This document shows, piece after piece, positions 29,541 to 64,000 of a stretch of 64,000 nucleotides of DNA. The notes beneath the pieces were generated by a model. The model was not told the origin of the DNA. It made no database searches and saw only the letters and a list, made by a program, of their open reading frames with translations. A program made the position numbers and the translations under genes. Position 1 is the stretch's first letter; the number at the start of each line of letters is the position of its first letter. Source of the DNA: a virus; the IMG/VR virus record IMGVR_UViG_3300033388_005371, positions 7,025 to 71,024 of that record; one strand, 5' to 3'.

Positions 29541-29587
29541 AACTCTATTTTTACACTATTATAACCTATTATTAACCAAATTAAAGG

Positions 29588-29830
29588 TTATTTCACATAA
29601 TCACACTCAACGTAAGCAATCCTATGTTGTTGACCTTTTGAATCAACAGTAATTTCAGCCATATACCTAACAATCCAGTCTTCACCTTGAGACCTTGGCA
29701 CAGCTGTACACCCAGTATTTCCACTAAGTTTAAATTTTTTCGCCTTCTTATCAGAAGCGGATGGAGACCATTTATATAAGTTTTTATCATATGGTTTCCT
29801 TACGAATGTTTTATTTTTATCTAACCCCAT
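29588..29830 (-). CDS. Hypothetical protein between terminase and portal
   Basis: 80-aa ORF. Confidence 0.55.
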   Translation of the reverse strand: MGLDKNKTFVRKPYDKNLYKWSPSASDKKAKKFKLSGNTGCTAVPRSQGEDWIVRYMAEITVDSKGQQHRIAYVECDYVK

Positions 29831-29838
29831 AATTATAA

Positions 29839-31644: not shown

Positions 31645-31735
31645 ATCTTTTTATAATAAATATGTTGAACCCCCTAAAAACAAAAAAACCCCATGAATGG
31701 AGTTTTTTTTTTGTTGTGTAATATATTTTTATTTG

Positions 31736-36178: not shown

Positions 36179-36949
36179 TTAGACTTTTTTTTTTAAAGCC
36201 TCTTGTAGTGCTTTAATTTCTGTTTCAGACATACCATTAACCATATTTAGTAACTTGTCTTCACTTTCTTCAATCGATAAAGCTTTACCAATCTTAAGTC
36301 TATTATTCACTAAATAACCATGTGACTCTTTAATATTTTCTTCACCAGTAATCATTTTATCGATAGCTGATTCATCTTCAGATAATTCAACATCCTCACC
36401 CATAATTTCAGTATCATGACCTTGCTCCCCAGCTTTGTGTTTACCTTGATTAGTTAAACTATCAACAGGGTCTTTATCAAAATCACCATCTAAATTATCA
36501 CCAGACGTAACTTTATCAATATCGTAGTTGGTCCCTTCCATTTCACCAACGAAACCAATACCACCAGCACTAGATTCCATTAAATTATCATTTTCAAACA
36601 CATTAACTTTATCTCCACCGAATGATTCATTTATACTTAAGAATTTAAGGTTAAGTTGTTTTATTGCCTTTGCATATGTTGGATACGCTTCACTTTTTTT
36701 ATTTTTAAGACCACCAATATAGTTAAAATCTTCACTTATCAAACCACTATTTTTTTCAGATGTCTTAATATAATATTCATGATTTTCTCTAACAATACCA
36801 TATACAACACCGTTAGGTGCAATCTTAGTAAGTTCCACAACTGAGTTACTTGTTGATTCATTAATAGTACCACCCATTAACTCTCTCATACGGTCTAATA
36901 CTTGATTACCCTTAAGACCTTTAGGGTTGATTCTGTTATTTGTTTTCAT
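36179..36949 (-). CDS. Putative internal head protein (N-terminal part of the frameshift fusion)
   Basis: 256 aa, ends GCT TTA AAA AAA AAA GTC TAA; late motif at 36966. Confidence 0.65.
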   Translation of the reverse strand: MKTNNRINPKGLKGNQVLDRMRELMGGTINESTSNSVVELTKIAPNGVVYGIVRENHEYYIKTSEKNSGLISEDFNYIGGLKNKKSEAYPTYAKAIKQLNLKFLSINESFGGDKVNVFENDNLMESSAGGIGFVGEMEGTNYDIDKVTSGDNLDGDFDKDPVDSLTNQGKHKAGEQGHDTEIMGEDVELSEDESAIDKMITGEENIKESHGYLVNNRLKIGKALSIEESEDKLLNMVNGMSETEIKALQEALKKKV

Positions 36950-37289: not shown

Positions 37290-37475
37290 TTAATAACATT
37301 TTACACAACCAATGATGGGATTAAACATTCTCATATCGGAATACCATTTATCTAGTTTGTACTTACGTAACCTATTAAACCTAATATATACCGAAAATCC
37401 ATAAACACTATCATTTTCAATTAGCGCATAAATTCTTTTTTTAACTGACTTACTCATACACTTATTTAATTTCAT
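37290..37475 (-). CDS. Small hypothetical protein
   Basis: 61-aa ORF downstream of thyA. Confidence 0.35.
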   Translation of the reverse strand: MKLNKCMSKSVKKRIYALIENDSVYGFSVYIRFNRLRKYKLDKWYSDMRMFNPIIGCVKCY

Positions 37476-37509
37476 TTTTTTTCATTGTTTAATTTAATAA
37501 ATACATATA

Positions 37510-38619
37510 TTAATTAGAAAGTGGGGCTTTAATTTCTGGATGTGATTGATAATTTAAAATCTTAACATTCTCATAACAATAGTCGAAGATACTATCAGCC
37601 CTCCCCAACTTCAACTGAGGTAGTGGTTTAGCACTCCTAGATAACAACTCTTCCACTTGTTCCATGTGGTTATTATACAAGTGTACATCACCTAATGACC
37701 CAATCAATTCATTAGGTACCATATTAACTTGCTGTGCAATCATATGTAGTAATAACGCATAACTCGTAATATTAAATGGTAACCCTAAGAACGTATCAAC
37801 AGACCTTTGGTTCCACATTAGTGATACCTTGTACTTTGGTATATCAGCTCTCTCGTAATCCGATTCGTAATGGTCTTCCATAACAAATGTACCTTCCCTC
37901 ATCATTGCTCTATCAATACTAATCGCCCAGTTATTATCCGCACAATGTTGTACGTACAAGTTCTCACGCTCTTCGTTTGTTAGTTCTACCGTATTCAATT
38001 GGAATCCGTAGTGGCATGGTGGTAACGTCATTTTATCTAAATCACCCACATTCCATGCATTAACCATAATTCTCCTTGAGTTAGGGTTATCCTTAAGGGT
38101 ATCAATTGCCTTTTGAATTTGATTGTGACCTTTATTAAGCCCTTCAATCTCATCACCAGATACAATCTTATATCCACCCCAATCAACCCATTGTTTACCA
38201 TATACAGGACCCAATTCACCCCACTTCTTAGCGAACTCACCATCAATTTTAATTTTGTTGATGAATTCTTCTTTTGTTAATAAATTATCATGTTGAAGTA
38301 CATCATGTGATTCAACTGGTGGTAGATTAGTAATATATTTCTTATAAGCATCTCCAACCCAAATCATATTCCCTTGCTGAACTAATGGTTTAATATTAGT
38401 ATCACCATTTAAGAACCATAATAATTCTGTAGTAATACCCTTCATAAACATTTTTTTTGTTGTTAACATTGGGAAACCATCACCCATATTAAACCTAATC
38501 ACCCTACCAAAGACAGAAACTGTACCCGTCCCAGTACGGTCTTCTTTTTTAACCCCATTAGTTATTATATCTTTAAGTAAGTCTTGATAAACTTTATCAA
38601 CCTTATCCATTTTTTTCAT
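37510..38619 (-). CDS. thyA: Thymidylate synthase
   Basis: DRTGTGT, ELLWFL, LGPVYGKQW, SRR, LPPCH, QRSVDTFLGLPFNI, GDVHLYNNH. Confidence 0.96.
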   Translation of the reverse strand: MKKMDKVDKVYQDLLKDIITNGVKKEDRTGTGTVSVFGRVIRFNMGDGFPMLTTKKMFMKGITTELLWFLNGDTNIKPLVQQGNMIWVGDAYKKYITNLPPVESHDVLQHDNLLTKEEFINKIKIDGEFAKKWGELGPVYGKQWVDWGGYKIVSGDEIEGLNKGHNQIQKAIDTLKDNPNSRRIMVNAWNVGDLDKMTLPPCHYGFQLNTVELTNEERENLYVQHCADNNWAISIDRAMMREGTFVMEDHYESDYERADIPKYKVSLMWNQRSVDTFLGLPFNITSYALLLHMIAQQVNMVPNELIGSLGDVHLYNNHMEQVEELLSRSAKPLPQLKLGRADSIFDYCYENVKILNYQSHPEIKAPLSN

Positions 38620-39034
38620 TATTTAATTTAGAGATTAAGAACTGAACTCTAGTTAACATTGAGTCATCTATAGTTTCGTTTTTACTATAACCTTTTATTG
38701 TCGTATCCATCGCTTTAATCAAGTCACCTTCTATCGCTTTAATTTCAGCAACTTGGTGTTTCTCAACTTCAGCAATGATTTTTGCTGGGTCAATATCTTC
38801 ACCTTTAGTAACTGGGTGTTTTTTAATGTACGTATTTAAAATTTTCCCTTGGGACTCAGCAATTTCGAATCTTGTATAATCCGTAGCTGGAACACCTGTG
38901 TACATATAATTAGTACCTTTATTAAATGTGATTGTCAACGTTTCGTTCACTTTATCATACTTTGACGCAAGTATGTTTGATGATTTGTAAATTGCTTTTA
39001 CAATCCCTTCTTTTTCTACTTTTTTTAAAATCAT
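38603..39034 (-). CDS. KTSC-domain protein
   Basis: SSNILASKYD...LTITFNKG..YMYTGVP...F..AESQGK..N..IK. Confidence 0.8.
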   Translation of the reverse strand: MILKKVEKEGIVKAIYKSSNILASKYDKVNETLTITFNKGTNYMYTGVPATDYTRFEIAESQGKILNTYIKKHPVTKGEDIDPAKIIAEVEKHQVAEIKAIEGDLIKAMDTTIKGYSKNETIDDSMLTRVQFLISKLNNEKNG

Positions 39035-55848: not shown

Positions 55849-56463
55849 TTACGCTCTTAATTTTTCTAATAATTCTGAAAATTCACCATAGTAATCCCTA
55901 GTATCAAATTCATCTGGGTGAATACTCTTAAACTTAAAATACATCTCATTGCAAACACTAAAGTCCACAATCTTTTGGTACTCCTTTAATTGTAAACCAA
56001 AGTGTAATATTCTCAATGCGTGGAACATCCCCTTTTTAGCCCTATCCTTGAACCCAGACTTAGCTTGTTGGTTAGCAACGTGACGACTAGAAGATGCCTT
56101 AGAAATAATCTTCTTAATCATAGTCTTTGTATCCCAGTTAGTAACCTTGAAGTCCCAACTATTTTTAAGCACAATATCGTCAGGTAATGACAAACACTCT
56201 AATGAGGTAACGTCATAATCATTTATTGCGTTAATGAACCCACCTCTGGAATAAACAACACCTTGAATTAAACCATCCACACTAGTTAATGGTGAAGTTA
56301 ACTTAAAGGAACCATCACCTAATATCCCACTTTTCATAATGATTATGAAATCACTATCCGACTTAGAATCAGCCGTACCATACACTTGACTCCCATAAGG
56401 AAAAATAGATAATACTTCACCCTTAATAGAAAGCTCATTTATTATCTTATCTGAATCTATCAT
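55849..56463 (-). CDS. Pol-beta-superfamily nucleotidyltransferase
   Basis: YGSQVYGT...SDSDF (GS...DxD), KGMFHALRIL. Confidence 0.8.
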   Translation of the reverse strand: MIDSDKIINELSIKGEVLSIFPYGSQVYGTADSKSDSDFIIIMKSGILGDGSFKLTSPLTSVDGLIQGVVYSRGGFINAINDYDVTSLECLSLPDDIVLKNSWDFKVTNWDTKTMIKKIISKASSSRHVANQQAKSGFKDRAKKGMFHALRILHFGLQLKEYQKIVDFSVCNEMYFKFKSIHPDEFDTRDYYGEFSELLEKLRA

Positions 56464-56479
56464 AAATTAGTTTTATTTG

Positions 56480-56531
56480 TTTTAACATCATCACTATTGT
56501 ACTTAAATAACCATAAACAATTACGTTATAA
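56480..56531 (-). mobile_element. Degenerate attC-like site (end of cassette cluster 1)
   Basis: TTATAAC carrying the upstream stop codon ... GTTAAAA; weak inner pairing. Confidence 0.3.
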
Positions 56532-56762
56532 AATATAAGAGGATTTACTTTGCCTTAAAATCTCTTTTTCTATAACTTTTGGGAAATCACTCCAACCCTT
56601 TTCATTTAACATATTTAACTCTTTAGCATATCTTCCATGCATAGAGTTTTCTTTATTTACTTTTATAAAGTAATAACAAACACCATCATAGTAGTTTATT
56701 AACTTAACTTTTTCACCTTCTATGTTGTATATTTTTTCGTCTTTACTTTCTTGTAATTTCAT
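56526..56762 (-). CDS. Cassette-like small protein
   Basis: 78 aa; stop codon lies in a TAAC box. Confidence 0.55.
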   Translation of the reverse strand: MKLQESKDEKIYNIEGEKVKLINYYDGVCYYFIKVNKENSMHGRYAKELNMLNEKGWSDFPKVIEKEILRQSKSSYIL

Positions 56763-56823
56763 ATTGTTCTGTTTTTATTTAATCCGTTAAAAATATAACC
56801 ATATTAGAGCGCATTAAAACACA

Positions 56824-57079
56824 TAATAACATTGTGTAAGTAAACATAAAATTTACTTAACAATAATATCTTGTAGTTTTTCAATTCTATTTAGCCACTT
56901 ATCACGCTCATAGATATTGCTGCCAACCGCATAAATAAACCTTATACCTTTTTGTTTTACTAACATTTCTTTTCTTAACTCATACTTTACGACTTTTTTA
57001 CAGCAAAAATCTATGAGCTTTCTAACTATCCATTGTTTCATAATCGTAAATTTTTTGTTTCTTATACTTAGCGTTATAC
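56824..57079 (-). mobile_element. attC-like site whose loop holds a 62-aa ORF
   Basis: GTATAAC-GCTAA-GTATAAG-AAACA-AAAAATTTAC ... GTAAATTTT-A-TGTTT-A-CTTACAC-AAT-GTTATTA. Confidence 0.6.
56853..57041 (-). CDS. Small protein encoded inside an attC-like stem
   Basis: 62 aa; TTACGATT-ATG ... AAG-TAA-ATTTT. Confidence 0.55.
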   Translation of the reverse strand: MKQWIVRKLIDFCCKKVVKYELRKEMLVKQKGIRFIYAVGSNIYERDKWLNRIEKLQDIIVK

Positions 57080-57403
57080 ACCATATTCACGATAATAAAC
57101 CTTCCCATCTTTTTTGTTTTTTAGATTAACAGAGAATTTACCATCAGTACATTCTACATCCCAATCTTCATCTTTCTCTTCTCCTTTTGCTCTGTTAAAA
57201 AACAAAAGTCTATTGCAGTCACAAGAGTAGTTGTTCTCTTCCCAATTAAAAACAGATGGGTGCTCGTCACCTATTTCTAAAATTTCGTGGGTTTCAAATT
57301 CTCTTATTTCACCAGTATCGTTTTTCCTAATTTCAGCAATGCATTCTACCCGAATACAGTTTTTTATTTGGTGACTTTCTTTTTTTACCACTATCCAATC
57401 CAT
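57074..57403 (-). CDS. Cassette-like protein with a CDCNR motif
   Basis: 109 aa; WEENNYSCDCNR; stop codon lies in a TAAC box. Confidence 0.65.
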   Translation of the reverse strand: MDWIVVKKESHQIKNCIRVECIAEIRKNDTGEIREFETHEILEIGDEHPSVFNWEENNYSCDCNRLLFFNRAKGEEKDEDWDVECTDGKFSVNLKNKKDGKVYYREYGV

Positions 57404-57580
57404 CTATTTTTAAATTAAGTTTTATAAAAATACGGTGCATAACACCCTTCTTTAAATTCATTCATAATATAATACTTTTAAAATACTCTATTCATTCCAC
57501 CAGTGCGTTATTCCCACTTCTTTAGCATAGTAACACCAAGTGTTGTGGTCGCTTACCATTGTAATACCTTGTGTGTCATT

Positions 57581-57823
57581 TTCATAACACAATAAAAATT
57601 ACTTACGTTCCTCTACTTTATATCTGTTGCTTAAAATAGAATAGGCTTCTAATTCTGATAGTTCATATTTTCTAACCATACTTAGCAATTCAAAAATATC
57701 GTTCCATTGTTTAAGTTGCTTACCTATTGTATTTCCTTCAATCTTTAATTCTTTCTTTGTTAATTTTCTTATATCGCTCATATTCGTAATTTTTAAAACA
57801 CTTCATACAATCGTCCGTTATGC
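57581..57823 (-). mobile_element. attC-like site with a partly deleted right arm and a 60-aa ORF in the loop
   Basis: GCATAAC...AAAAATTACG-AAT-ATG ... AAG-TAATTTTTA...GTTATG. Confidence 0.45.
57599..57781 (-). CDS. Small protein flanked by AAAAATTAC/GTAATTTTT inverted repeats
   Basis: 60 aa. Confidence 0.55.
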   Translation of the reverse strand: MSDIRKLTKKELKIEGNTIGKQLKQWNDIFELLSMVRKYELSELEAYSILSNRYKVEERK

Positions 57824-58132
57824 TTTATAAAAAAACCAATAAAGCAAACTAACACTAATTTAGGTAGAACTATATTTTTTCCCACCCAAATTGTGTGGTG
57901 TAACAGTATTTATCAAAAAAACACAAACCCCAACCATCCACTTTTATACCATCTTGTAGAGCAAATAACCCACACTCAATAAAACCTAAAATCTTAAACG
58001 TTTTTATCCCTTTTTTCATCTTAAAAGTGCCTAACATATAAAATATAGTTAGGACTTGTTTAATTATTTAAGTGTATTACAAGCCACACTTAATAGCTTA
58101 TTAATCAACAACCTTAGTTTCTATACCACAAA

Positions 58133-58690
58133 TCATATATTTAAATTTAATGTCGCAATAGCATCAATCTTGAAATGCGAAATAAACTTATTGAAGTAAA
58201 ATTTTTTACCACCAACAGTTTTGTAATTCGACTTGTAAGTAATCTCACCCAACCTAACATTACATGAACCAACACTAACATCCTTTGACAACAACACACC
58301 CCTGTGTGGTGGGGATGAATGCCATGAGTAAACAATATATAATAACGCATAATCAATAATCGATGGGTCATCGGTACCACCCAACGGTGCTGAATAAGAA
58401 TCCCCATAATAATCCCCTAAGAATTTATTAAATGAATCTAAGTCTGATTGAGTAGAAGCTAATGTAAATTGCCTAGTAACACACTCGTAAGTATTTGTGC
58501 CAGAATGCATCAAACTATCATTGAGAAACATGTTAATCGTATTAACCTTTGAAATAATATGTAACTCAGAATCGTACACTAATGGCACAACACCATTCGC
58601 AACCCTATATTCGTTAACGTAATCAAATAATAATGAATCTTGTCCGAATGTACTCACCGTAATCAATAAAAATAATACTAATAATTTCAT
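58133..58690 (-). CDS. Secreted CAP (SCP) domain protein (start trimmed to MKLLVL)
   Basis: Signal peptide; VNEYRVANGVVPL, HS, E, WHSSPPHRGVLL. Confidence 0.8.
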   Translation of the reverse strand: MKLLVLFLLITVSTFGQDSLLFDYVNEYRVANGVVPLVYDSELHIISKVNTINMFLNDSLMHSGTNTYECVTRQFTLASTQSDLDSFNKFLGDYYGDSYSAPLGGTDDPSIIDYALLYIVYSWHSSPPHRGVLLSKDVSVGSCNVRLGEITYKSNYKTVGGKKFYFNKFISHFKIDAIATLNLNI

Positions 58691-58709
58691 ATCTGTTAGT
58701 TTTGTTTCA

Positions 58710-58741
58710 CAAATATAATAACAATAACTAATATAACCAAA
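58710..58741 (-). promoter_or_regulatory. Bacteroidota-type promoter
   Basis: TTTG-N20-TATATTTG. Confidence 0.75.
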
Positions 58742-58978
58742 TAATTTCCCCATTATTTTCTAAATAATTACTACGTGTTTAATACATAATTCACCCACAC
58801 ACTTAATCCCCATTCATATATTTTTTTAATTTATTTTTTAGGGAAGAAGGGGGCTGGGGGATGAAGGGTCCGTTTAGGGCGGCATTACATAAAAAACCGC
58901 GATTCCAGCCAATTAGAGCGGTTTTTTAAATCCTCGATTCCTTAACCCTATCCACATTTTAAATAAGTATATACTTAC

Positions 58979-59425
58979 TTATATTTTTTTAAACCAAAAT
59001 TTCTTCTTAGGTAATATCACCATAAACATCTCCTTAGTCCCAATAGGTGAATCCCCAACCAATGTAGGTAAAATAGGTGCGTCAACCCCAGTCTTGTCCC
59101 CTAAAGCCTCATATTCTAATATAGCACTATCATATATAAGCTTCTTATCATTGTAAAGGTCAACCCTATCTCTCCACTCCTTATACTGTGTTTTGAAATT
59201 ACCCTGATGAACCAATTGATACTTTTCCGTATTATCTACCGTAAAATTAAATAATAAAGTGAAAGGGTTGGCAAACTTACACGTAGGATTAGACACAATC
59301 GTCTTACTACCCCTAATTATATGCTTCTCAGAACGAATTTGATAATACTTACTTATCCTACCTAGTAATTTACCATACCATATCGATAATCTACTCCCAC
59401 CTATTTCTCTTTTATTTTCTTCCAT
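58979..59425 (-). CDS. Hypothetical protein
   Basis: 148 aa; downstream hairpin aaaaaaccgc...gcggtttttt at 58891-58927. Confidence 0.55.
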   Translation of the reverse strand: MEENKREIGGSRLSIWYGKLLGRISKYYQIRSEKHIIRGSKTIVSNPTCKFANPFTLLFNFTVDNTEKYQLVHQGNFKTQYKEWRDRVDLYNDKKLIYDSAILEYEALGDKTGVDAPILPTLVGDSPIGTKEMFMVILPKKKFWFKKI

Positions 59426-59456
59426 GTTTTAACCTATTATTAATTTATATTTTTTT

Positions 59457-60410
59457 TTAACCTATTATAACAGTACCACTAAAATCCCACCCTGTCATTA
59501 AACAATGACTATCGTACGCATAATAAGTATGACCATCTGGTGACATGAACTCAACAGTATAGTCAACAATTTGACCATCATTGTGGTGCTCACCCTTATA
59601 GGATATGTTAATCTCCCAGTCAGTTAGTGAACTTATATCTAAACCAAATTCCTCTTGAAATATTTCTATATATATTTCATCAAATACCAATTCACCACTA
59701 TCATATGCGAATAACAAACTATTTAATTCACTACCTCTGAATACTATAGGAAATGGTGGCTTAGCAATAACTTCTTTTTTGCTGGTGGACCTAGTTCTTT
59801 TAATTTCAATATGTTTTAATATTTCATGCATCTCTAATTCGAATACGGTTTTATTCAAATAGTTTTTAACCCTCTTTTTAATCTTAGTAGATTTAAATAA
59901 TTTTAACTGCTTCTCTAACCATATATCAATTTCTTTAATACCATTAATGTAGTATTCCTTTTCATAATGAGTATCACCCCCATTACCAGTAGTAAATGTT
60001 AAATCATGATAATATTCACTTAGATTATCAAAATAATATGAAACAGAATGTCTATAATCGTTATCACTTAATAAATCCTTATTAAGATACACAGTTTTTG
60101 AATAACCCTTTTTTGGTGTGAAGTTTTCTGGGGCTTCATTCCACTCTTTAATTACCTTATTCGCAATACGCTTAATTTTTTTAACATCTTTAATTAATTT
60201 CTCAGATAACTTGGTAAGAACTTCTTCAACAACTTCATCAACGTTTGGATAGTCAATTATTTTAAATGTTGCACCATGTATATCTAACTCAATTAATTTA
60301 ACCCCCATCTCTGGTTGGGTCATGCTTGATTTAATTCCTTTTGTTTCCTTTAGAATATTGAATGTTGGTTTCAATATAAAGGGTTTATTAATGTTTCTTA
60401 TAAAATCCAT
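59457..60410 (-). CDS. Hypothetical protein
   Basis: 317 aa; host-type promoter at 60415-60446. Confidence 0.6.
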   Translation of the reverse strand: MDFIRNINKPFILKPTFNILKETKGIKSSMTQPEMGVKLIELDIHGATFKIIDYPNVDEVVEEVLTKLSEKLIKDVKKIKRIANKVIKEWNEAPENFTPKKGYSKTVYLNKDLLSDNDYRHSVSYYFDNLSEYYHDLTFTTGNGGDTHYEKEYYINGIKEIDIWLEKQLKLFKSTKIKKRVKNYLNKTVFELEMHEILKHIEIKRTRSTSKKEVIAKPPFPIVFRGSELNSLLFAYDSGELVFDEIYIEIFQEEFGLDISSLTDWEINISYKGEHHNDGQIVDYTVEFMSPDGHTYYAYDSHCLMTGWDFSGTVIIG

Positions 60411-60445
60411 ATTGCAAATATAATGATTATTATATGAAAGACCAA

Positions 60446-60584
60446 ATATTTTTTACCAAAAATTTCTAGAAAATTTTTTTTTAAAAAGAGGTAACTTATA
60501 TTTTTTACCAAAAATTTCTGAAAAATTTTTTTTTAAAAAAGGGGTAACTTATATTTTTTTGCCAAAAATTTCTGAAAAATTTTT
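60446..60584. repeat. About 52-bp A/T-tract tandem repeat, about 2.6 copies
   Basis: atatttttt(a/g)ccaaaaatttct(a)gaaaattttt...ggtaactt units near 60446, 60498 and 60551. Confidence 0.85.
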
Positions 60585-60620
60585 CTGTGACATCATGTGC
60601 CCTATTTTAGGGTCGCCACG

Positions 60621-60682
60621 GAGGGGGGTATAAGAGGGTTTACGGGGGGAGGGGTACGGGGGGAGGGTCTACCCACCCTCCC
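60621..60682 (+). other. G-tract cluster (G-quadruplex-capable) with an overlapping hairpin
   Basis: Six runs of 3-6 G; tacggggggaggg x2; GGGAGGGT-N6-ACCCTCCC. Confidence 0.7.
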
Positions 60683-60732
60683 TACGTCATTATCCCTTAT
60701 ATATCACCTAATTAATTATTAATATATACAAA

Positions 60733-60761
60733 TAAATCCACACATATTTTGTGTGGATTTA
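60733..60761. terminator. Hairpin terminator closing the early region
   Basis: taaatccacaca-tattt-tgtgtggattta. Confidence 0.7.
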
Positions 60762-60783
60762 TTAACATTGTATTATTATTAAC

Positions 60784-61374
60784 TTATATTGTTACACCTT
60801 GTAATTTTAATTCGTTAATTGAGTTAAAAGTAAATCGTCTAATTTTATCGTTTCTAAGGTTAGCAAGTTTTTTTATTTCTTTTTTTGCTAATGTTTTTGG
60901 TCTACTATTTACATTCGGGTAAGTACCTTTAACTAAAATTGTTTTTCTCTCACACACACCACTAACAAAAACCTTTCCACTCTCCTTGTTTTGTTTAATT
61001 CCTTTAGCAAGAGTAATAAAAGCGTCAGTTTGTCCATCAGAACGTCTTATTGTACTATCTCCGTCCTTTCTAAGTTGTTCTTTTTCTGTTTCTGTTGCAG
61101 TAAGTTTAGCAAGGCTAGTAAGTAATTCAGAATAAGCTTTCGTTGCTACCTCTTCACCGTATTTTTTAATAACAGTTTTAATGTTTAATTGTTTAAGTGT
61201 TTCAAGGTCTTTATTTAACATATTAGTGTAGTTATACCCTACTAATAATGTTTGGTTACTTATTTCCCCTTTAGAGTTCTCGTAACCTCTCACACCAACG
61301 AATGTTGTACCGTTAATAGTTTTAGCCGTTACTAATGCTTTAATCCCTCTAAGTGTTTCTTTTAATGTGTTCAT
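60784..61374 (-). CDS. Hypothetical early protein
   Basis: 196 aa; strong promoter at 61402-61433. Confidence 0.65.
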   Translation of the reverse strand: MNTLKETLRGIKALVTAKTINGTTFVGVRGYENSKGEISNQTLLVGYNYTNMLNKDLETLKQLNIKTVIKKYGEEVATKAYSELLTSLAKLTATETEKEQLRKDGDSTIRRSDGQTDAFITLAKGIKQNKESGKVFVSGVCERKTILVKGTYPNVNSRPKTLAKKEIKKLANLRNDKIRRFTFNSINELKLQGVTI

Positions 61375-61401
61375 AATTTCTATTGTTTTAATTTGACATT
61401 A

Positions 61402-61433
61402 CAAATATAATAAACTTTTATATATTTACCAAA
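61402..61433 (-). promoter_or_regulatory. Early Bacteroidota-type promoter in a repeated block
   Basis: TTTG-N20-TATATTTG followed by TAATGTCAAATTAAAACA. Confidence 0.8.
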
Positions 61434-61449
61434 CTTTTTTGTAATTAAA

Positions 61450-61569
61450 TTACATAAATTTATATAATTCTTTTTCAAATTCTTTTTCAGCTTGTTTTTT
61501 AATTAGTTTGTATTTAATACGACTACCAATTAGTAAAACAATAATAAATAATAATAATAGGGTCACCAT
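61450..61569 (-). CDS. Small membrane protein (not in the ORF track)
   Basis: MVTLLLFIIVLLIGSRIKYKL... Confidence 0.45.
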   Translation of the reverse strand: MVTLLLLFIIVLLIGSRIKYKLIKKQAEKEFEKELYKFM

Positions 61570-61571
61570 AA

Positions 61572-61748
61572 TTAACGTTTATTTGTTTTGTTTGGAATCA
61601 TTGGGGCTAACATACCCATCCAAAATAATGAACTGAATACGAACCCACAATACCAATCCATTGGGGTTGTTGGCATCACACCAAAAGCTGTTGTGAATAC
61701 TGCTAATAAAATAACGCTTAGAAAATAAATAAATAACATTGACTTCAT
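61572..61748 (-). CDS. Small two-TM membrane protein (58 aa, not in the ORF track)
   Basis: MKSMLFIYFLSVILLAVFTTAFG...FVFSSLFWMGMLAP; promoter block at about 61758-61807. Confidence 0.55.
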   Translation of the reverse strand: MKSMLFIYFLSVILLAVFTTAFGVMPTTPMDWYCGFVFSSLFWMGMLAPMIPNKTNKR

Positions 61749-61815
61749 AATATATATTGTTTTAATTTGACATTACAAATATAATAAACTTTTATTAATA
61801 TTCCTAATTTATATA

Positions 61816-62127
61816 CTATATTTTTTCAATATTATTTGTTTTAGTGTTTAATTTATAATTGTTATCACTTTCATTGTAAGGTTTATTTTTACTCCACATT
61901 GGGTAGAAACACCCACTATAATATCTAACACTATACACTTTATTACCAACATGAATATTACAATCTCTATATTTAGAAATATTCATTTGGTCGGCTAATT
62001 CCGTTGTATAAACATGCCCATTTAATTTCTTAAATTCACCATCACCCCAATTTTCAATACCTCTAGCAGTTATTAAGCCATTAGTGTATAATTTTTTCCA
62101 ATCTATTCTAGTTAATTCAGTATCCAT
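61816..62127 (-). CDS. Hypothetical early protein
   Basis: 103 aa; YYSGCFYP; promoter at 62155-62186. Confidence 0.6.
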   Translation of the reverse strand: MDTELTRIDWKKLYTNGLITARGIENWGDGEFKKLNGHVYTTELADQMNISKYRDCNIHVGNKVYSVRYYSGCFYPMWSKNKPYNESDNNYKLNTKTNNIEKI

Positions 62128-62154
62128 AATTTTATGTGTTTTAATTTGACATTA

Positions 62155-62186
62155 CAAATATAAGAAACTTTTATATATTTACCAAA
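62155..62186 (-). promoter_or_regulatory. Early Bacteroidota-type promoter in a repeated block
   Basis: TTTG-N20-TATATTTG plus the same downstream block. Confidence 0.8.
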
Positions 62187-62228
62187 GTTTTTTGTATGTT
62201 TTTTTATTTTATTTTAAATCACTTTTTA

Positions 62229-62260
62229 TTTGGTGGATACAAACATTATGCTTATATTTG
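62229..62260 (+). promoter_or_regulatory. Divergent Bacteroidota-type promoter with no sizeable ORF downstream
   Basis: TTTG-N20-TATATTTG on the + strand. Confidence 0.6.
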
Positions 62261-62476
62261 TATTGTTGATATAAAAGTGAATTGGGCTGAGTTAAATCTT
62301 AGAAGAGTAGACTCCAACCTACCTTATATTTTTTTTGTGTAATAAAAGTCGTATAAAAATTAGGTTTATTGGATTATTTTTTGTACCTTTACATATTATA
62401 CACTATACTAATATTAGTATAATTAAATCACCCAACATAAAACAATCTCATAATTTTATGTTGGGTAATTAGTTAT

Positions 62477-62821
62477 TTAGTCTTCAACAAATTTAATTGT
62501 ATCGTAATCAATAGAGTTTTCTAACACATCAAAATCGTATAGGTTTGTGTTTAGTAGTTGGAAATAACATTTAACACTTTCGACAATTATATAGTAATAG
62601 TTTTTAGTAATATTATTGGTGCTTACTGTCACTATTTTATTAATATTATTTTTATTACTTTTGTTAGCCATACCAAACACACCACCAAGTGTGTTAATCA
62701 CTTGTCCTTTACAATTTGGGAAAACAATAAGGTCGTGTTTAGTATTTCCATATGGTTCGGTACATTTAATATCTTTAAAGAATTGCACTTGTTTTACTGT
62801 TTTGAATGTTTTGTTTGACAT
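62477..62821 (-). CDS. Hypothetical early protein
   Basis: 114 aa; promoter at 62849-62880; hairpin at about 62430-62466. Confidence 0.55.
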   Translation of the reverse strand: MSNKTFKTVKQVQFFKDIKCTEPYGNTKHDLIVFPNCKGQVINTLGGVFGMANKSNKNNINKIVTVSTNNITKNYYYIIVESVKCYFQLLNTNLYDFDVLENSIDYDTIKFVED

Positions 62822-62941
62822 AATTTTAATTATTTTAATTTAACATTACAAATATAAGTATAATATATTGAACTACCAAATATAATACTGTTTTATTTAC
62901 ATTTGTGTGCACAAATGTGTACCTAAGCTAATACTATTTTC

Positions 62942-63163
62942 TTAGTTTTTGCCATAGTGGTGTAATTTTAAATTAACATTCTCTAAAGATGTTTTGATGT
63001 CTTCTAACTGCGAAGTGTAAGACCATTCTGTATCTTCTCTACTAATAGCCTCTATGCCTAATTCTACTTTTTGTAGAATACTTTGTAGTTCTTTTAAAGC
63101 CTCTACTTTTACTTTACTATTATTTGTTGCATCTGTAATGCAGTCTAATAAATTATTAGTCAT
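62942..63163 (-). CDS. Hypothetical early protein
   Basis: 73 aa; promoter at 63192-63221. Confidence 0.55.
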   Translation of the reverse strand: MTNNLLDCITDATNNSKVKVEALKELQSILQKVELGIEAISREDTEWSYTSQLEDIKTSLENVNLKLHHYGKN

Positions 63164-63250
63164 AATTTCTTTGTTTTAATTATCTATACGTCAAATATAG
63201 TAAATAGTTTGTAAATACAAAAGAAGTATTCAAAAAAAATACCGTGATGT

Positions 63251-63304
63251 AGATAACACGGTATAAAACGCCATTAAAACAGGCGTTTATACTCAACGTT
63301 ATAG
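63251..63304 (-). mobile_element. attC-like site (54 bp)
   Basis: CTATAAC-GTTGA-GTATAAA-CGCC-N9-GGCG-T-TTTATAC-CGT-GTTATCT. Confidence 0.65.
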
Positions 63305-63505
63305 GTAATAGAGTGAGCGTTCTTTTACCTTATTGAGACCTCTATGGTTTTTTAAGTAAATGTCATTATCTATTATCACCAAAGCCCCTATTATATCTAT
63401 TCCCCCATGTTCTGTTTCTCCACTATAACGACTACCTATAACAAAGTGTAAAACACCATTGTCATAAGTATTAATTGCTATTCTATCAGTTCCTATCAGT
63501 TCCAT
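63299..63505 (-). CDS. Cassette-like small protein
   Basis: 68 aa; stop codon lies in the TAAC box. Confidence 0.55.
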   Translation of the reverse strand: MELIGTDRIAINTYDNGVLHFVIGSRYSGETEHGGIDIIGALVIIDNDIYLKNHRGLNKVKERSLYYL

Positions 63506-63571
63506 TAATTCAATTTTTCAAAGTCAGTGGGTAAAATCCCACCGATTTCATATTATCAACGTTATATGCAA

Positions 63572-63808
63572 TTACAATTCGTCAAATTCATAATCTACTG
63601 CATCAGTTGCATCTAAACTAAATTTATACAAAGGTTTCTGTAAATCGTTAATATCAAATATCAACTTTCTATCAATTGAAATTATATATTCACCTTGTTG
63701 TAAGTTGTCCAGTATTCCTTGCTCAATATCTTGCTCTACCTCTGTTTCAGTATGGTAGTTGTATATTGTCATATCAAATAATCCGTTAATGCTAAATTCT
63801 ATTGCCAT
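63572..63808 (-). CDS. Cassette-like small acidic protein
   Basis: 78 aa; lies between two GCATATAAC/GTTATATGC boxes. Confidence 0.6.
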   Translation of the reverse strand: MAIEFSINGLFDMTIYNYHTETEVEQDIEQGILDNLQQGEYIISIDRKLIFDINDLQKPLYKFSLDATDAVDYEFDEL

Positions 63809-63840
63809 AATATTTCTCTTTTTTTATTGTTAATTAAAAA

Positions 63841-63905
63841 GCATATAACACTAGCTATATGCCATACTCGTTCCTCGTTCAGCACATAGCCAAACCGTTA
63901 TATGC
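63841..63905 (-). mobile_element. attC-like site (65 bp)
   Basis: GCATATAAC-GGTTT-GGCTATGTGC-N19-GCATATAGC-TAGT-GTTATATGC. Confidence 0.65.
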
Positions 63906-63999
63906 AATATACACAAGGTAACACCTCAACCGAATCAGAAGCATCTTCCAATATACTTTGGTCTATTTCATCTGAAAATGTTGGTGAGCCAAAGTTATC
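63898..63999 (-). CDS. 3' end of a cassette-like gene truncated by the window edge
   Basis: DNFGSPTFSDEIDQSILEDASDSVEVLPCVYCI*; stop codon lies in the TAAC box. Confidence 0.55.
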   Translation of the reverse strand, partial: DNFGSPTFSDEIDQSILEDASDSVEVLPCVYCI

Positions 64000-64000
64000 A

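What the first reader, a model, noticed from the sequence alone, without database searches (positions are those of the whole stretch)
56480..64000. Integron-like gene-cassette arrays (attC-like sites) in a jumbo phage genome
Seen on the minus strand: small unrelated ORFs in two clusters (56.5-57.8 kb and 63.2-64 kb, running off the window) are separated by imperfect hairpins of one design: ..TAAC, a 5-nt spacer, an inner stem, a 3-4-nt spacer, then GTTAT. Full sites lie at 63251-63304 and 63841-63905, split sites at 56824-57079 and 57581-57823, and partial sites at about 63506-63569 and 56480-56531. Four genes (ending 56526, 57074, 63299, 63898) have their TAA stop inside the TAAC box. Known: integron attC sites have R'' (..AAC) and R' (GTT..) boxes, an unpaired spacer and extrahelical bases, and cassette stops often fall in R''. 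No tyrosine recombinase is in the window. Inference: a phage-borne cassette system that captures and shuffles small early genes using a phage or host integrase.
Basis: partly seen in the sequence, partly recalled or inferred. Interest (0 to 1): 0.88.

Follow-up and report, generated by a model that had tools for sequence, protein, structure and literature searches.

The report
Integron-like gene cassettes in phage
Several small genes at the end of this fragment of a very large marine phage are bounded by folded DNA sites of a widespread family that behaves like the gene-cassette sites of bacterial integrons, which suggests how such phages and their Bacteroidota hosts swap small genes.

Summary
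The window is the end of a 71-kb fragment of a jumbo-type phage. It holds one strong site (63838-63909, minus) and one clear diverged site (63246-63310) of a large element family: YAAC, 5-nt spacer, GGCTATG-type arm, variable hairpin, YATAGSY arm, 3-4-nt spacer, GTTR. A third site (63431-63573) is weak. The family occurs in hundreds of viral contigs and in Bacteroidota chromosomes. It carries the classical integron cassette signature: the 7 nt after GTT of one site are complementary to the 7 nt before AAC of the next site, not to its own. Homology between related contigs breaks at AAC. Near-identical phage contigs hold the same cassettes in different order. Two window genes (57074-57403, 57599-57781) are such cassettes. 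Neither this contig nor 28 of 29 element-bearing viral records encodes a tyrosine recombinase. Bacterial arrays sit beside Xer/IntI-like recombinases that lack the IntI insertion. Polaribacter phage P12002L, where attC clusters are published, carries the same family. Verdict: real, a new variant of a known kind. The enzyme and any activity in this phage are not shown.

The parts
63838..63909 (-). Canonical attC-like element. R'' is GCATATAAC (63905-63897) and contains the TAA stop at 63900-63898. Then come the spacer GGTTT (63896-63892), L'' GGCTATG (63891-63885), a variable hairpin, L' ATATAGC (63860-63854), the spacer TAGT (63853-63850), R' GTTATATGC (63849-63841) and a T-run (63840-63836).
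   Evidence: R1 69.2 bits, E 3.7e-16; R2 71.3 bits. DNA fold is -13.4 kcal/mol (z -4.6) on the minus strand and -9.4 on the plus strand. Sequence read.
63246..63310 (-). Second, diverged element of the GTATA-type L-box subfamily. R'' is TACCTATAAC (63307-63298) with the stop at 63301-63299. Then come the spacer GTTGA, the stem GTATAAACGCC...GGCGTTTTATAC, the spacer CGT and R' GTTATCT (63257-63251).
   Evidence: R2 32.7 bits, E 2.3e-5; R1 12.0 bits. Fold is -8.3 kcal/mol, z -3.1.
63431..63573 (-). Possible third, long site. R'' is GCATATAAC (63569-63561), 8 nt after the stop of gene 63572-63808. It has an inner hairpin TCGGTGGG...CCCACTGA and a candidate R' GTTATAGGTA (63442-63433).
   Evidence: R2 15.2 bits, E 0.54, which is weak. 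The R'' box is identical to that of the canonical element.
63561..63849 (-). Cassette 1. It runs from GTTATATGC to GCATATAAC, which are 9-nt terminal inverted repeats, and encloses gene 63572-63808 (78 aa, no family).
   Evidence: Pair listed; sequence. Short Logan contigs of two runs cover just 63560-63847 and 63562-63869 (table 8).
63298..63442 (-). Possible cassette 2. It runs from GTTATAGGTA to TACCTATAAC, a perfect 10-nt inverted repeat 145 nt apart, inside or overlapping ORF 63299-63505 (68 aa).
   Evidence: 0 mismatches. About 0.3-1% chance for a pre-named R'' box by my estimate. Not otherwise supported.
57073..57443 (-). Cassette 3. It runs from GTTATGCACC (57443-57434) to GGTGTATAAC (57082-57073) and encloses gene 57074-57403 (109 aa, no family). 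It has no L''-hairpin-L' part upstream in this window.
   Evidence: DNA homology to L001, L002, L003 and L007 (92.8% identity) covers exactly 57444-57073 and stops at the C of TAAC. The downstream contexts differ in L001, in L002/L003, in L007 and in the window. In L001-L003 the unit starts GTTATGCACC and ends GGTGCATAAC, a perfect reverse complement.
57599..57823 (-). Cassette gene 57599-57781 (60 aa) preceded by the box GCATAAC (57823-57817). The 3' boundary is decayed in the window.
   Evidence: 87% aa identity to L055 8589-8768, which lies inside a 15-site array. DNA homology starts at CATAACG.
57061..57078 (-). Half-site TATAACG CTAA GTATAAG: an R'' box, a spacer and a GTATA-type L'' arm, with no returning arm.
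   Evidence: Read. It resembles AACG..GTATA arms in L001/L002 and in P12002L. No model hit.
56524..56530 (-). TATAACG box holding the stop of gene 56526-56762. No hairpin follows.
   Evidence: No model hit.
56464..58132 (-). Variable segment of five small genes without known family. It lies between a CAP-like gene (58133-58753) and a nucleotidyltransferase gene (55849-56463).
   Evidence: Both flanking genes are conserved in the 353-kb relative (L270 7174-7776 and 10001-10615, 74% and 78% aa). The 2.2 kb between them there holds unrelated genes and no TAACG boxes. Pfam and PHROGs found no family for the five genes.
63228..63262 (-). Plain terminator-like hairpin ACCGTG...CACGGT followed by TTTTTTTT. 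It overlaps the R' box of the second element.
   Evidence: Fold -5.0 kcal/mol, z -3.2; sequence.
63898..64000 (-). 3' end of a gene that runs off the contig end. Its TAA lies in the R'' box of the canonical element.
   Evidence: The window end is the contig end.

Best explanation
The hairpins at 63.2-63.9 kb belong to a large family of attC-like folded recombination sites shared by phages of Bacteroidota and by Bacteroidota chromosomes. A site reads, on the strand that folds best: N7'-AAC, 5-nt spacer (GGTTT), left arm (GGCTATG or GTATA-type), variable covarying hairpin, right arm (YATAGSY), 3-4-nt spacer, GTT-N7. The mobile unit runs from just after one AAC to the next AAC. It therefore carries its own hairpin body, its GTT-N7 box, one or a few genes and its N7'-AAC box. 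When such a unit is circularised its two ends pair and complete the site, as in integron cassettes. Read on the opposite strand, the crossover lies at the canonical G|TT position. In bacteria the arrays lie next to a co-directional tyrosine recombinase of the Xer/IntI kind that lacks the IntI-specific insertion. I infer that this host enzyme, or a relative of it, acts on folded single-stranded phage DNA during infection and inserts, excises and reshuffles cassettes, because the phages themselves encode no such enzyme. In this window the system is small and partly decayed. It has a mini-array of two or three sites at the contig end, two clean cassettes (63849-63561 and 57443-57073) and several half-sites. 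In the phage orientation the hairpin plus T-run probably also serves as a transcription terminator. Shown: the site family, its structure, the cassette-end complementarity, breakpoints at AAC, shuffled order in near-identical contigs, absence of a recombinase in phage records, and recombinase adjacency in bacteria. Inferred: the enzyme, the single-stranded substrate, circular intermediates, and present-day activity in this phage.
For: Family. Of 132 matches in those 119 loci, 114 are preceded by T or C and 58 fit a strict full-design pattern. In 120 bacterial stretches, 20 of 125 matches fit the strict pattern, mostly in Bacteroidota records.

Structure. On a model-fitted alignment 95.9% of cells pair, against 84.7% in shuffles (0 of 500 shuffles reach it). 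There are 115 double changes against 41 in shuffles, and slid controls pair in 27-61% of cells. Compensatory changes were also seen on the MAFFT alignment.

Cassette signature, viral set. The 7 nt after GTT of site n match the 7 nt before AAC of site n+1 in 4.08 of 7 positions on average, and 28 of 75 pairs have a run of 4 or more. For a site's own boxes the figures are 2.61 of 7 and 5 of 169. The reversed control gave 0 of 75, and random pairs 4%. Fisher p = 4.9e-12.

Cassette signature, bacterial set. 12 of 22 cross pairs have a run of 4 or more, against 2 of 71 own pairs and 0 of 22 controls. p = 1.1e-7.

Breakpoints. 23 of 37 internal homology ends of HSPs of 250 nt or more stop at the C of AAC or one base after it, against 4.4% of random positions.

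Shuffling. L001 and L002 share six blocks at 97-99.6% identity in the order A,B,C,D,E,F against A,B,E,C,F,D.

Window. Model hits. The 109-aa gene sits in four different contexts with breaks at GTT.. and ..AAC. The 60-aa gene lies inside the L055 array. The segment is replaced in the 353-kb relative.

Enzyme. No PF00589, PF00239 or PF01797 in the contig. PF00589 is present in 1 of 29 element-bearing viral records, and 10 of the 11 records that are at least 90% complete have none. R1 sites lie within 9 kb of the best IntI-like recombinase in 9 of 14 fetched bacterial regions; two of the 14 were chosen knowing that a site was near. Those recombinases score 193-241 bits on NF040815 and 178-234 bits on TIGR02249 (cut-off 265), and they lack the ~55-residue insertion of the canonical IntI aligned with them.

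Precedent. P12002L carries five sites of this family around its methyltransferase genes. The paper reports a cluster of attC sites with two methyltransferase genes there and IntI1 recombination of one of its two tested sites (PMC9892861; section 3.4 and passages read).
Against: Only one site in the 71-kb contig is strong. Even the broader model adds just one clear site. The complete 353-kb relative has no site at E <= 0.01, so the system is not a stable feature of this phage lineage.

No recombinase is linked to the phage sites, and the bacterial recombinases lack the insertion that IntI needs for folded attC sites by published work (Escudero et al. 2016, PMC4792948; seen only as a search listing and abstract).

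The canonical IntI found in one bacterial genome has no R1 site beside it (L254).

Sites in bacteria are also dispersed singly, which fits a REP-like repeat as well.

The viral and bacterial sets were seeded with an exact 15-mer, and the alignments used for the counts were fitted to the model, so conservation of the left arm is overstated.

Most contigs are metagenome assemblies, so mis-joins at repeats could mimic some reshuffling, though not the end complementarity.

The hairpin plus T-run also looks like an intrinsic terminator.
Confidence: 0.68

Rival explanations
1. The family is integron-like, but in this phage the sites are inert relics. A few cassettes and one intact site came in by recombination with array-bearing phages and are now decaying. 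Today they serve, at most, as terminators between small genes.
For: There is one strong site and one diverged site in 71 kb. The 56.5-57.8 kb cluster has half-sites only. Cassette 57443-57073 lacks its hairpin body, which is present in L001-L003. The 353-kb relative has no site. A T-run follows the canonical hairpin, and a separate terminator overlaps the second site.
Against: The canonical site is intact and identical in its variable part to copies in many other contigs. The contig ends inside the array, so more sites may lie beyond it. About 80% of the genome is unseen.
Confidence: 0.35
2. Shuffling works as it does for PeSL motifs. The conserved intergenic motif is a regulatory terminator or promoter element, and ordinary homologous recombination between its 15-25 conserved bases swaps the genes in between. 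This has been described for promoter-stem-loop motifs in T4-type phages.
For: An exact 15-mer is shared by many sites. The phages lack a site-specific recombinase. The hairpin plus T-run is terminator-like. Breakpoints at the edge of a conserved block are what homologous exchange would also give. PeSL papers PMC2839356 and PMC4122927 were seen as a search listing and abstracts only.
Against: Homologous exchange neither needs nor creates the complementarity between the variable 7 nt at the two ends of each cassette. Several breaks lie at ..TAAC where no conserved motif follows. The same sites form arrays beside tyrosine recombinases in bacteria. One P12002L site is reported as recombined by IntI1.
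Confidence: 0.12
3. The elements act in RNA as terminators or processing sites. The complementary cassette ends are long-range RNA stems flanking each gene, for example for RNase III processing, and are not DNA recombination sites.
For: In phages the elements are co-oriented with the genes (47 of 72 intervals, 1 opposite, 24 unclear). The stop codon lies in or just before the AAC box in 124 of 166 sites. G.T pairs favour the sense strand. T-runs follow many copies.
Against: In bacterial arrays the genes run antisense to the same element strand (16 of 18 intervals). Transcripts there would carry the poorly folding complement, yet the end complementarity persists. Identical cassettes occur in different DNA contexts with breaks at the boxes.
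Confidence: 0.05
4. The sites are ends or targets of a single-strand transposition system run by a HUH enzyme (as in IS200/IS605 or REP/RAYT) or by another unknown phage enzyme, not by a tyrosine recombinase.
For: The sites are imperfect hairpins with a conserved short sequence beside them. Single copies are dispersed in bacterial genomes. The phages have no tyrosine recombinase.
Against: No Y1 transposase is present in the contig. The R/L box architecture, the AAC/GTT triplets and the cassette-end rule are those of attC sites. Arrays abut tyrosine recombinases. I did not search the other viral records or the bacterial arrays for HUH genes.
Confidence: 0.04

Closest known systems
[quoted passage not shown] 2023, PMC9892861)
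   Same: Both have R''-AAC and GTT-R' boxes, L''/L' arms set off by short unpaired spacers, a variable middle part, and stop codons in R''. In both, the first bases of a cassette are complementary to its own R'', and the crossover lies at the G|TT / AA|C position. The arrays are co-oriented and the phage has no integrase. Polaribacter phage P12002L carries this very family.
   Different: In phages the genes run opposite to the usual cassette direction relative to the site. The left arm and spacer are unusually conserved in sequence (AACGGTTTGGCTATG). The bacterial partner enzyme is not a canonical IntI. I could not run IntegronFinder or HattCI, and I could not map the published P12002L_attC1/attC2 onto my hits because supplements are closed.
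Complete integrons with an 'inverted' integrase gene co-directional with the cassettes (Treponema type; recalled, not checked in any call)
   Same: In the Bacteroidota arrays the recombinase gene lies upstream of the cassette genes and is co-directional with them.
   Different: The recombinases score below the integron-integrase cut-off and lack the IntI insertion. Most carry an extra ~100-residue N-terminal part with no Pfam family.
PeSL mobile regulatory cassettes of T4-type phages (PMC2839356, PMC4122927; search listing and abstracts only)
   Same: Both are conserved stem-loop motifs between small accessory genes in variable regions of large virulent phages, and both are linked to gene shuffling without a phage integrase.
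   Different: PeSLs are promoter-terminator motifs thought to act by homologous recombination. Here the ends of each unit are complementary to each other, and the sites occur in bacterial arrays beside tyrosine recombinases.
Xer-dependent dif modules of Acinetobacter plasmids (PMC7399989; search listing and abstract only)
   Same: Both are small gene modules bounded by recombination sites for a Xer-type host tyrosine recombinase, with no dedicated enzyme on the element.
   Different: dif-like sites are double-stranded 28-bp sites, not long hairpins with R and L boxes, and no cassette-end complementarity rule is described for them.
REP elements with RAYT, and IS200/IS605 ends (recalled)
   Same: Both are dispersed intergenic imperfect hairpins at gene ends.
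   Different: No HUH enzyme was found, and the site architecture and cassette rule differ.

Membership tests
Integron attC site | Outer boxes R'' (..AAC) and R' (GTT..) that pair | tested here: met
   AAC and GTT are invariant in the 48-sequence alignment. AAC is at the expected place in 190 of 200 viral model hits and GTT in 191 of 200; these counts lean on the model. The window sites 63838-63909 and 63246-63310 have both boxes.
Integron attC site | Inner arms L''/L' separated from the R boxes by short unpaired spacers of unequal length; variable middle part | tested here: met
   The spacers are 5 nt and 3-4 nt, and the arms pair with covariation. Site length runs from about 62 to about 147 nt.
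Integron attC site | Extrahelical bases that mark the recombining strand | tested here: inconclusive
   There is a conserved G.T closing pair (124 of 137 sites) and an unpaired G in the left arm. One strand folds better: -13.4 against -9.4 kcal/mol. Equivalence to the canonical extrahelical G and T was not established.
Integron attC site | The start of a cassette is complementary to the R'' box at its own end (circular-cassette signature) | tested here: met
   Viral set: 28 of 75 cross pairs against 5 of 169 own pairs. Bacterial set: 12 of 22 against 2 of 71. In the window: 63849-63841 with 63569-63561, and 57443-57434 with 57082-57073.
Integron attC site | Crossover at G|TT (AA|C on the folded strand) | tested here: met
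   23 of 37 homology ends stop at AAC or AACG, against 4.4% at random positions. Resolution is limited to the conserved letters TAACG.
Integron attC site | Recombined by an integron integrase | not testable with these tools
   The paper reports that IntI1 recombined one of two tested P12002L sites (section 3.4 read). P12002L carries this family. Which of my five hits was tested is unknown because supplements are closed.
Integron attC site | Detected by the IntegronFinder/HattCI attC models | not tested
   These models are not available here. Rfam 15 gave only two chance-level matches in 54-64 kb.
CALIN (at least 2 attC sites within 4 kb, no integrase) | Two or more co-oriented sites close together and no IntI nearby | tested here: met
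   Sites at 63838-63909 and 63246-63310, both on the minus strand and about 530 nt apart. No PF00589 in the contig. The test used my own models, not IntegronFinder.
Complete integron | intI gene with the IntI-specific additional domain beside the array | tested here: not met
   None in the contig. The bacterial array-adjacent recombinases score 178-234 bits, below the 265-bit cut-off of TIGR02249, and lack the insertion.
PeSL regulatory cassette | Composite early promoter plus stem-loop motif as the repeated unit | tested here: not met
   The promoter-like repeats of this window (61367-62890) are separate from the hairpin sites. The sites carry no shared promoter-like hexamers in the consensus scan. 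The comparison rests on abstracts only.
IS200/IS605 or REP/RAYT | Associated Y1 HUH enzyme | tested here: not met
   No PF01797 in the contig. Other records were not searched.

The most novel reading that the evidence does not exclude
Bacteroidota carry their own integron-like system. Its integrase is a Xer-type tyrosine recombinase without the IntI insertion, and its folded sites form one conserved family. The cassettes of this system are shared with virulent phages, jumbo phages included, and are actively reshuffled inside them. The phages encode no recombinase and carry the cassettes in reversed gene orientation. The host enzyme would thus build and edit the accessory-gene arrays of the viruses that infect it.
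Probability: 0.4. Interest if true: 0.85.

Novelty: new variant of a known kind. Interest (0 to 1): 0.72.

Why it matters
Integrons are regarded as rare or absent in Bacteroidota. This rests on passages read in the IntegronFinder 2.0 paper (PMC9024848) and in a 2024 preprint (10.1101/2024.07.02.601686). Phage-borne attC clusters are known only from a handful of genomes (PMC9892861). The results here point to one conserved site family that links Bacteroidota chromosomes with many marine phage contigs. It carries the classical cassette signature and shows signs of recent reshuffling. Its bacterial partner enzymes lack the hallmark IntI domain. If this is confirmed, it gives a concrete, testable route for the turnover of small accessory genes in virulent phages. 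Polaribacter phage P12002L and its host would be a tractable laboratory pair. It would also give a natural test of whether the IntI insertion is needed for recombination of folded sites.

Tried and rejected
Rfam 15 on 54-64 kb at E <= 10 gave only two chance-level matches: mir-3149 (E 1.2) and anti-hemB (E 0.71).

Megablast of 56-64 kb against isolate phages found nothing. Blastn with the 77-nt element found only four chance hits at E about 8. A 15-nt core is too short for that search, so this says nothing about absence.

Relatives of the 317-aa protein by peptide patterns: none.

A contig-wide scan for GTT-N7...N7'-AAC pairs with at most 1 mismatch gave 222 pairs against 144 +/- 17 in shuffles. 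The pattern is strand-symmetric and noisy in this AT-rich DNA, so I used it only for pre-named boxes.

Weak R1/R2 hits were rejected. 36782-36824 lies inside a coding frame. I did not inspect 22556-22610, 2842-2903 and the other hits with E > 0.05, and I treat them as chance.

The first 7.2 kb of the contig has no hit better than 13 bits.

They join an R'' box to a GTTAT box across a gene in the order that showed no complementarity in the family (reversed control, 0 of 75). CATAAC at 57822-57817 and GTTATG at 57587-57582 may be the two halves of one site split by an inserted cassette, as seen in P12002L, but 6 nt is not evidence.

Sequencing runs: only short, low-depth Logan contigs were available, and the best holder has 25% of the words. 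A contig joint linking 63900 to 57588 with two letters between (table 5c) would place the 60-aa gene in front of a canonical site in that sample. The tool did not list it among supported joints, so I treat it as a hint only. Parts without cover and the low-side joints (58691 to 63238 and others) are not used.

The whole-genome R1 scans scored only 150 or 40 of several hundred to about 1,500 first-look candidates per genome. The counts (8 of 120 sampled genomes of the phylum of G052) are therefore lower bounds.

I made no protein-structure, protein-atlas or complex prediction calls, because no protein claim here needed one. They may hold the coordinates of P12002L_attC1/attC2.

Full report
WHAT THE WINDOW IS. 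The window is bases 7025-71024 of a single 71,024-nt IMG/VR virus record with no terminal repeats, and its end at 64000 is the contig end. CheckV rates the record 20% complete. The DNA is 26-35% G+C. The nucleotidyltransferase gene at 55849-56463 and thirteen other minus-strand ORFs between 49.9 and 61.4 kb have syntenic homologues (34-79% aa) in a 353,143-nt contig with direct terminal repeats, rated 100% complete. 'Fragment of a jumbo phage' is therefore a fair description. A Polaribacter MAG contig (L150) carries a site with the same variable part as the window's strong site, and the element family is common in Flavobacteriaceae and other Bacteroidota records. A Bacteroidota host is likely.

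CHECK OF THE OBSERVATION. On the minus strand, four genes end with TAA inside TATAACG, at 56526, 57074, 63299 and 63898. The heptamer is not enriched in the window as a whole (9 copies against 7.5 expected), but 5 of its 8 minus-strand copies lie between 56.5 and 63.9 kb.

The hairpin at 63841-63905 is as described. It reads GCATATAAC, GGTTT, GGCTATGTGC ... GCATATAGC, TAGT, GTTATATGC, then TTTTT. As single-stranded DNA it folds at -13.4 kcal/mol (z -4.6) on the minus strand and at -9.4 on the plus strand. The hairpin at 63251-63304 has the same layout with other arm sequences (fold z -3.1).

The 'partial' site near 63506-63569 has a perfect copy of the first box but no convincing return arm. 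The 'split' sites at 56824-57079 and 57581-57823 and the 'partial' site at 56480-56531 are isolated boxes, and no model finds a site there. No tyrosine recombinase, serine recombinase or Y1-HUH enzyme is encoded anywhere in the contig.

A LARGE ELEMENT FAMILY. The 109-aa gene at 57074-57403 led to relatives. In four viral contigs (L001, L002, L003, L007) its DNA is 92.8% identical to the window. The homology covers only 57444-57073. It begins at GGTGTT..ATGCACC and ends at the C of ..ATAAC, and what follows differs in L001, in L002/L003, in L007 and in the window. Upstream of the gene, L001-L003 carry a hairpin whose left part (AACGGTTTGGCTATG) is identical to the window site at 63.9 kb.

A 15-mer is expected by chance at about this rate in collections of this size, so only the contexts count. 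Of 132 matches in the 119 viral loci, 114 are preceded by T or C and 58 fit a strict pattern for the whole design. In the bacterial loci 20 of 125 fit it, and these sit in Bacteroidota-type records. Rows that look coding (for example L010, L016, L021, L037, L050, L076) are chance matches.

The consensus is YAAC, GGTTT, GGCTATG, a variable hairpin, YATAG(CC/GT), NNT, GTTR. RNAalifold pairs AAC(G) with (T)GTT and the two arms, with compensatory changes in the pairs next to the arms. On a model-fitted alignment of 85 further viral hits, 95.9% of cells pair against 84.7% in shuffles (0 of 500). There are 115 cells with changes on both sides against 41, and slid controls give 27-61%. That alignment leans towards the structure.

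A covariance model (R1) found 200 hits at E <= 1 in 126 viral loci and 87 in 61 bacterial loci. The hits often form arrays on one strand, for example 15 in the 12.9 kb of L055 and 23 in its whole 71-kb record.

THE CASSETTE SIGNATURE. If these were simple hairpins, the bases outside AAC and GTT of one site should pair with each other. They do not. Own pairs match in 2.61 of 7 positions, the same as random pairs (2.64), and 5 of 169 have a run of 4 or more. Instead, the 7 nt after GTT of a site are complementary to the 7 nt before AAC of the next site downstream. The mean is 4.08 of 7, with 28 of 75 pairs at a run of 4 or more and 23 of 75 at 6 or more of 7. The reversed control gave 0 of 75 (Fisher p 4.9e-12). 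Pairs less than about 600 nt apart are nearly always perfect; the misses are mostly long gaps, where an undetected site may lie between.

The bacterial set behaves the same way: 12 of 22 cross pairs, 2 of 71 own pairs, 0 of 22 controls (p 1.1e-7). Each unit GTT-N7 ... gene ... N7'-AAC thus has its own pair of inverted ends. This is the argument from which circular integron cassettes and the G|TT crossover were originally deduced (recalled: Hall, Stokes and co-workers, early 1990s; not checked in any call).

BREAKPOINTS AND RESHUFFLING. In an all-against-all blastn of the 127 viral sequences, 23 of the 37 internal right-hand ends of HSPs of 250 nt or more stop at the C of AAC or one base later. 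Random positions do so in 4.4% of cases. 26 of 43 left-hand ends have an AAC within the first 17 aligned bases, against 33% at random. Several breaks lie at ..TAAC where the two contigs continue with quite different sequence. The variable hairpin travels with the gene downstream of it (L001 against L002). The exchanged unit therefore runs from one AAC to the next.

L001 and L002 share six blocks at 97-99.6% identity in different order: A,B,C,D,E,F against A,B,E,C,F,D. L003 has F followed by D. These are metagenome contigs, so mis-assembly at repeats cannot be fully excluded. It would not, however, produce the end complementarity.

WHAT THIS MEANS FOR THE WINDOW. With R1 only 63838-63909 is strong (69.2 bits). 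A broader model built from 115 viral hits (R2) scores it at 71.3 bits, scores 63246-63310 at 32.7 bits (E 2.3e-5), and joins 63573-63431 weakly (15.2 bits, E 0.54). The 63.2-63.9 kb cluster is therefore a small co-oriented array that runs off the contig.

The cassette rule holds in the window. GTTATATGC (63849-63841) pairs with GCATATAAC (63569-63561) around gene 63572-63808. GTTATAGGTA (63442-63433) pairs perfectly with TACCTATAAC (63307-63298). GTTATGCACC (57443-57434) pairs with GGTGTATAAC (57082-57073) around the 109-aa gene.

A second gene of the lower cluster, 57599-57781, is 87% identical in protein to a gene inside the L055 array, with DNA homology starting at CATAACG. The whole segment 56464-58132 is replaced by unrelated genes without such boxes in the 353-kb relative, and that genome has no site at E <= 0.01. 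The window thus holds acquired cassettes and a few sites, some of them decayed. It does not hold a large intact array. Short Logan contigs from two runs cover just 63560-63847 and 63562-63869, that is, cassette 1 alone. This is a weak hint that the unit occurs in other contexts.

THE ENZYME QUESTION. Of 29 viral records that carry the sites, one encodes a PF00589 protein, and 10 of the 11 records rated at least 90% complete have none. In 30 element-bearing Bacteroidota genomes, one has a canonical integron integrase (425 bits), and no site lies beside it. In the others the best hits to the integron-integrase model are split, with positions 2-180 and 240-314 matched and the middle missing.

I fetched 14 regions around such genes. 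Two of them (L255, L256) were chosen knowing that a site was near. R1 sites lie within 9 kb in 9 of the 14, as co-oriented arrays of up to 5 in the region and at least 8 when L183 is added. In L257, L258, L259, L261, L262 and L265 the folding strand of the sites points at a recombinase gene on the other strand. Recombinase and cassette genes are therefore co-directional, with the recombinase first. In L255 and L256, from the genome that also has the canonical IntI, a recombinase fragment lies on the same strand as the sites.

The recombinases match NF040815 ('tyrosine recombinase/integron integrase', 193-241 bits, four of nine over its 220-bit cut-off) and TIGR02249 (178-234 bits, cut-off 265). 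They have the SAM_4 and catalytic domains and conserved catalytic residues. They lack the ~55-residue insertion present in the canonical IntI aligned with them. Most carry an extra ~100-residue N-terminal part without a family. A host enzyme of this kind is the best candidate for the phage sites, but nothing here shows that it acts on them.

ORIENTATION AND STRAND. In viral arrays the longest frame between sites lies on the element's folding strand in 47 intervals, on the other strand in 1, and is unclear in 24. In bacterial arrays the counts are 2 and 16. Read on the bacterial coding strand, the sites have the canonical integron layout: gene, then R''-L''...L'-R', with the crossover at G|TT. 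The strand that folds best is then the canonical 'bottom' strand. Phage arrays carry their genes the other way round.

The stop codon lies inside TAAC in 47 of 166 viral sites, and within 25 nt upstream in 77 more. The arm-closing pair is G.T in 124 of 137 sites, which becomes an A.C mismatch on the other strand. Because the gene direction flips between hosts and phages while the DNA rule stays, a purely RNA-level function is unlikely to be the conserved one. In phages the hairpin plus T-run may still terminate transcription.

WHAT IS KNOWN. Qi et al. 2023 (PMC9892861; outline, section 3.4 and passages read) scanned 10,705 phage genomes. [quoted passage not shown] One is in Polaribacter phage P12002L, with two methyltransferase genes, and IntI1 recombined five of six tested phage sites, including one of the two from P12002L.

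R1 finds five sites in P12002L at E < 0.01, all on the minus strand: 30000-30065, 30901-30964, 32215-32290, 38027-38099 and 38871-38945. They flank its methyltransferase and Mom-like genes. The cassette rule is visible there too: GTTACCTA.. with ..TAGGTAAC, and GTTGTATG.. with ..CATACAAC at a half-site. The window's family has thus already been met once, under the name attC. I could not map the tested sites onto my hits because supplements are closed.

The IntegronFinder 2.0 paper says that only integrases without cassettes had been seen earlier in Bacteroidetes, and that one complete integron was found in Salinibacter (passage read). A 2024 preprint counts Bacteroidota among clades earlier found without integrons (passage read). 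Three full-text searches found no description of this family or of its recombinases: attC/integron/bacteriophage genome/Bacteroidetes; integron-like/Bacteroidota/gene cassettes/tyrosine recombinase/attC; and Flavobacteri/gene cassette/tyrosine recombinase/hairpin/attC/Xer. That is no proof that none exists. PeSL motifs of T4-type phages (abstracts) are the nearest phage analogue working by homologous recombination.

VERDICT. The finding is real. The sites at 63.2-63.9 kb are members of an attC-like family, and at least two window genes are cassettes of it. The integron-like reading is the best supported (about 0.68). A substantial chance remains (about 0.35, not exclusive) that in this phage the sites are relics. 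A homologous-recombination reading (0.12), an RNA-only reading (0.05) and a HUH-type reading (0.04) fit the data less well.

The kind is known (attC clusters in phages). The new elements are the family-wide evidence, the reversed gene direction in phages, the link to Bacteroidota arrays and their non-canonical recombinases, and the occurrence in a jumbo-type phage.

LIMITS. The sets were seeded with an exact 15-mer. The models were built from those sets. Several counts rest on model-fitted alignments. Whole-genome scans scored only a part of their candidates. Most sequences are metagenome contigs. No experiment or read-level evidence shows recombination.

Noticed in passing
window 61367-62890 (minus-strand genes): Four copies of a 77-nt repeat (68-90% identical to the reference copy) sit directly upstream of the start codons at 61374, 61748, 62127 and 62821. 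Their core is TTATATTTGTAATGTCAAATTAAAAC. It looks like a phage promoter of the Bacteroidota TAnnTTTG type; that motif is recalled, not tested.
   Followed up: no
window 60449-60607 and 60600-60700: Three tandem 53-nt units lie next to an unusually G+C-rich, C-tract-rich stretch (..GGGAGGGTGGGTAGACCCTCCCCCCGTACCCCTCCCCCCGT..) in the 370-nt gap between genes 60784-61374 and 59457-60410. A similar C-rich patch lies at about 58840-58900. No explanation.
   Followed up: no
L265 (with L183), a Bacteroidales MAG chromosome: An array of at least 8 co-oriented sites over about 10.7 kb ends about 430 nt from a 383-aa Xer/IntI-like recombinase gene. All cassette genes are co-directional with the recombinase. 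It looks like a complete integron-like locus.
   Followed up: partly
L261 and G052:C1:2237876-2245569 (Cyclobacterium xiamenense complete genome): There are two separate places where a Xer/IntI-like recombinase gene (301-aa and 393-aa open frames) is followed within 3-7 kb by sites on the opposite strand. This suggests more than one array per genome.
   Followed up: partly
many viral loci, e.g. L013 913-1052, L018 276-419, L026 4590-4731: A second class of sites shares YAACGGTTTGGCTATG but continues with a hairpin of the type TGTAGTGCC...ACTACAC followed by TAAC, instead of the YATAGSY arm and GTT. The next gene starts about 60 nt later. These may be half-sites or a different functional form.
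   Followed up: no
Polaribacter phage P12002L (L271) 29248-32290 and 37305-38945: Every DNA methyltransferase or Mom-like gene of this isolate phage is bracketed by sites of the family. The anti-restriction genes are therefore the cassettes there.
   Followed up: partly
L270 2139-7173 against window 58754-58978: The 353-kb relative has about 5 kb of extra small genes where the window has a 225-nt gap with a G+C-rich terminator-like hairpin. This is a second variable slot, with no sites in either genome.
   Followed up: no
window 36782-36824 (minus): The best secondary model hit (16.8 and 19.2 bits) lies inside a coding frame (..TKIAPNGVVYGIVREN..). I take it as a chance match.
   Followed up: yes
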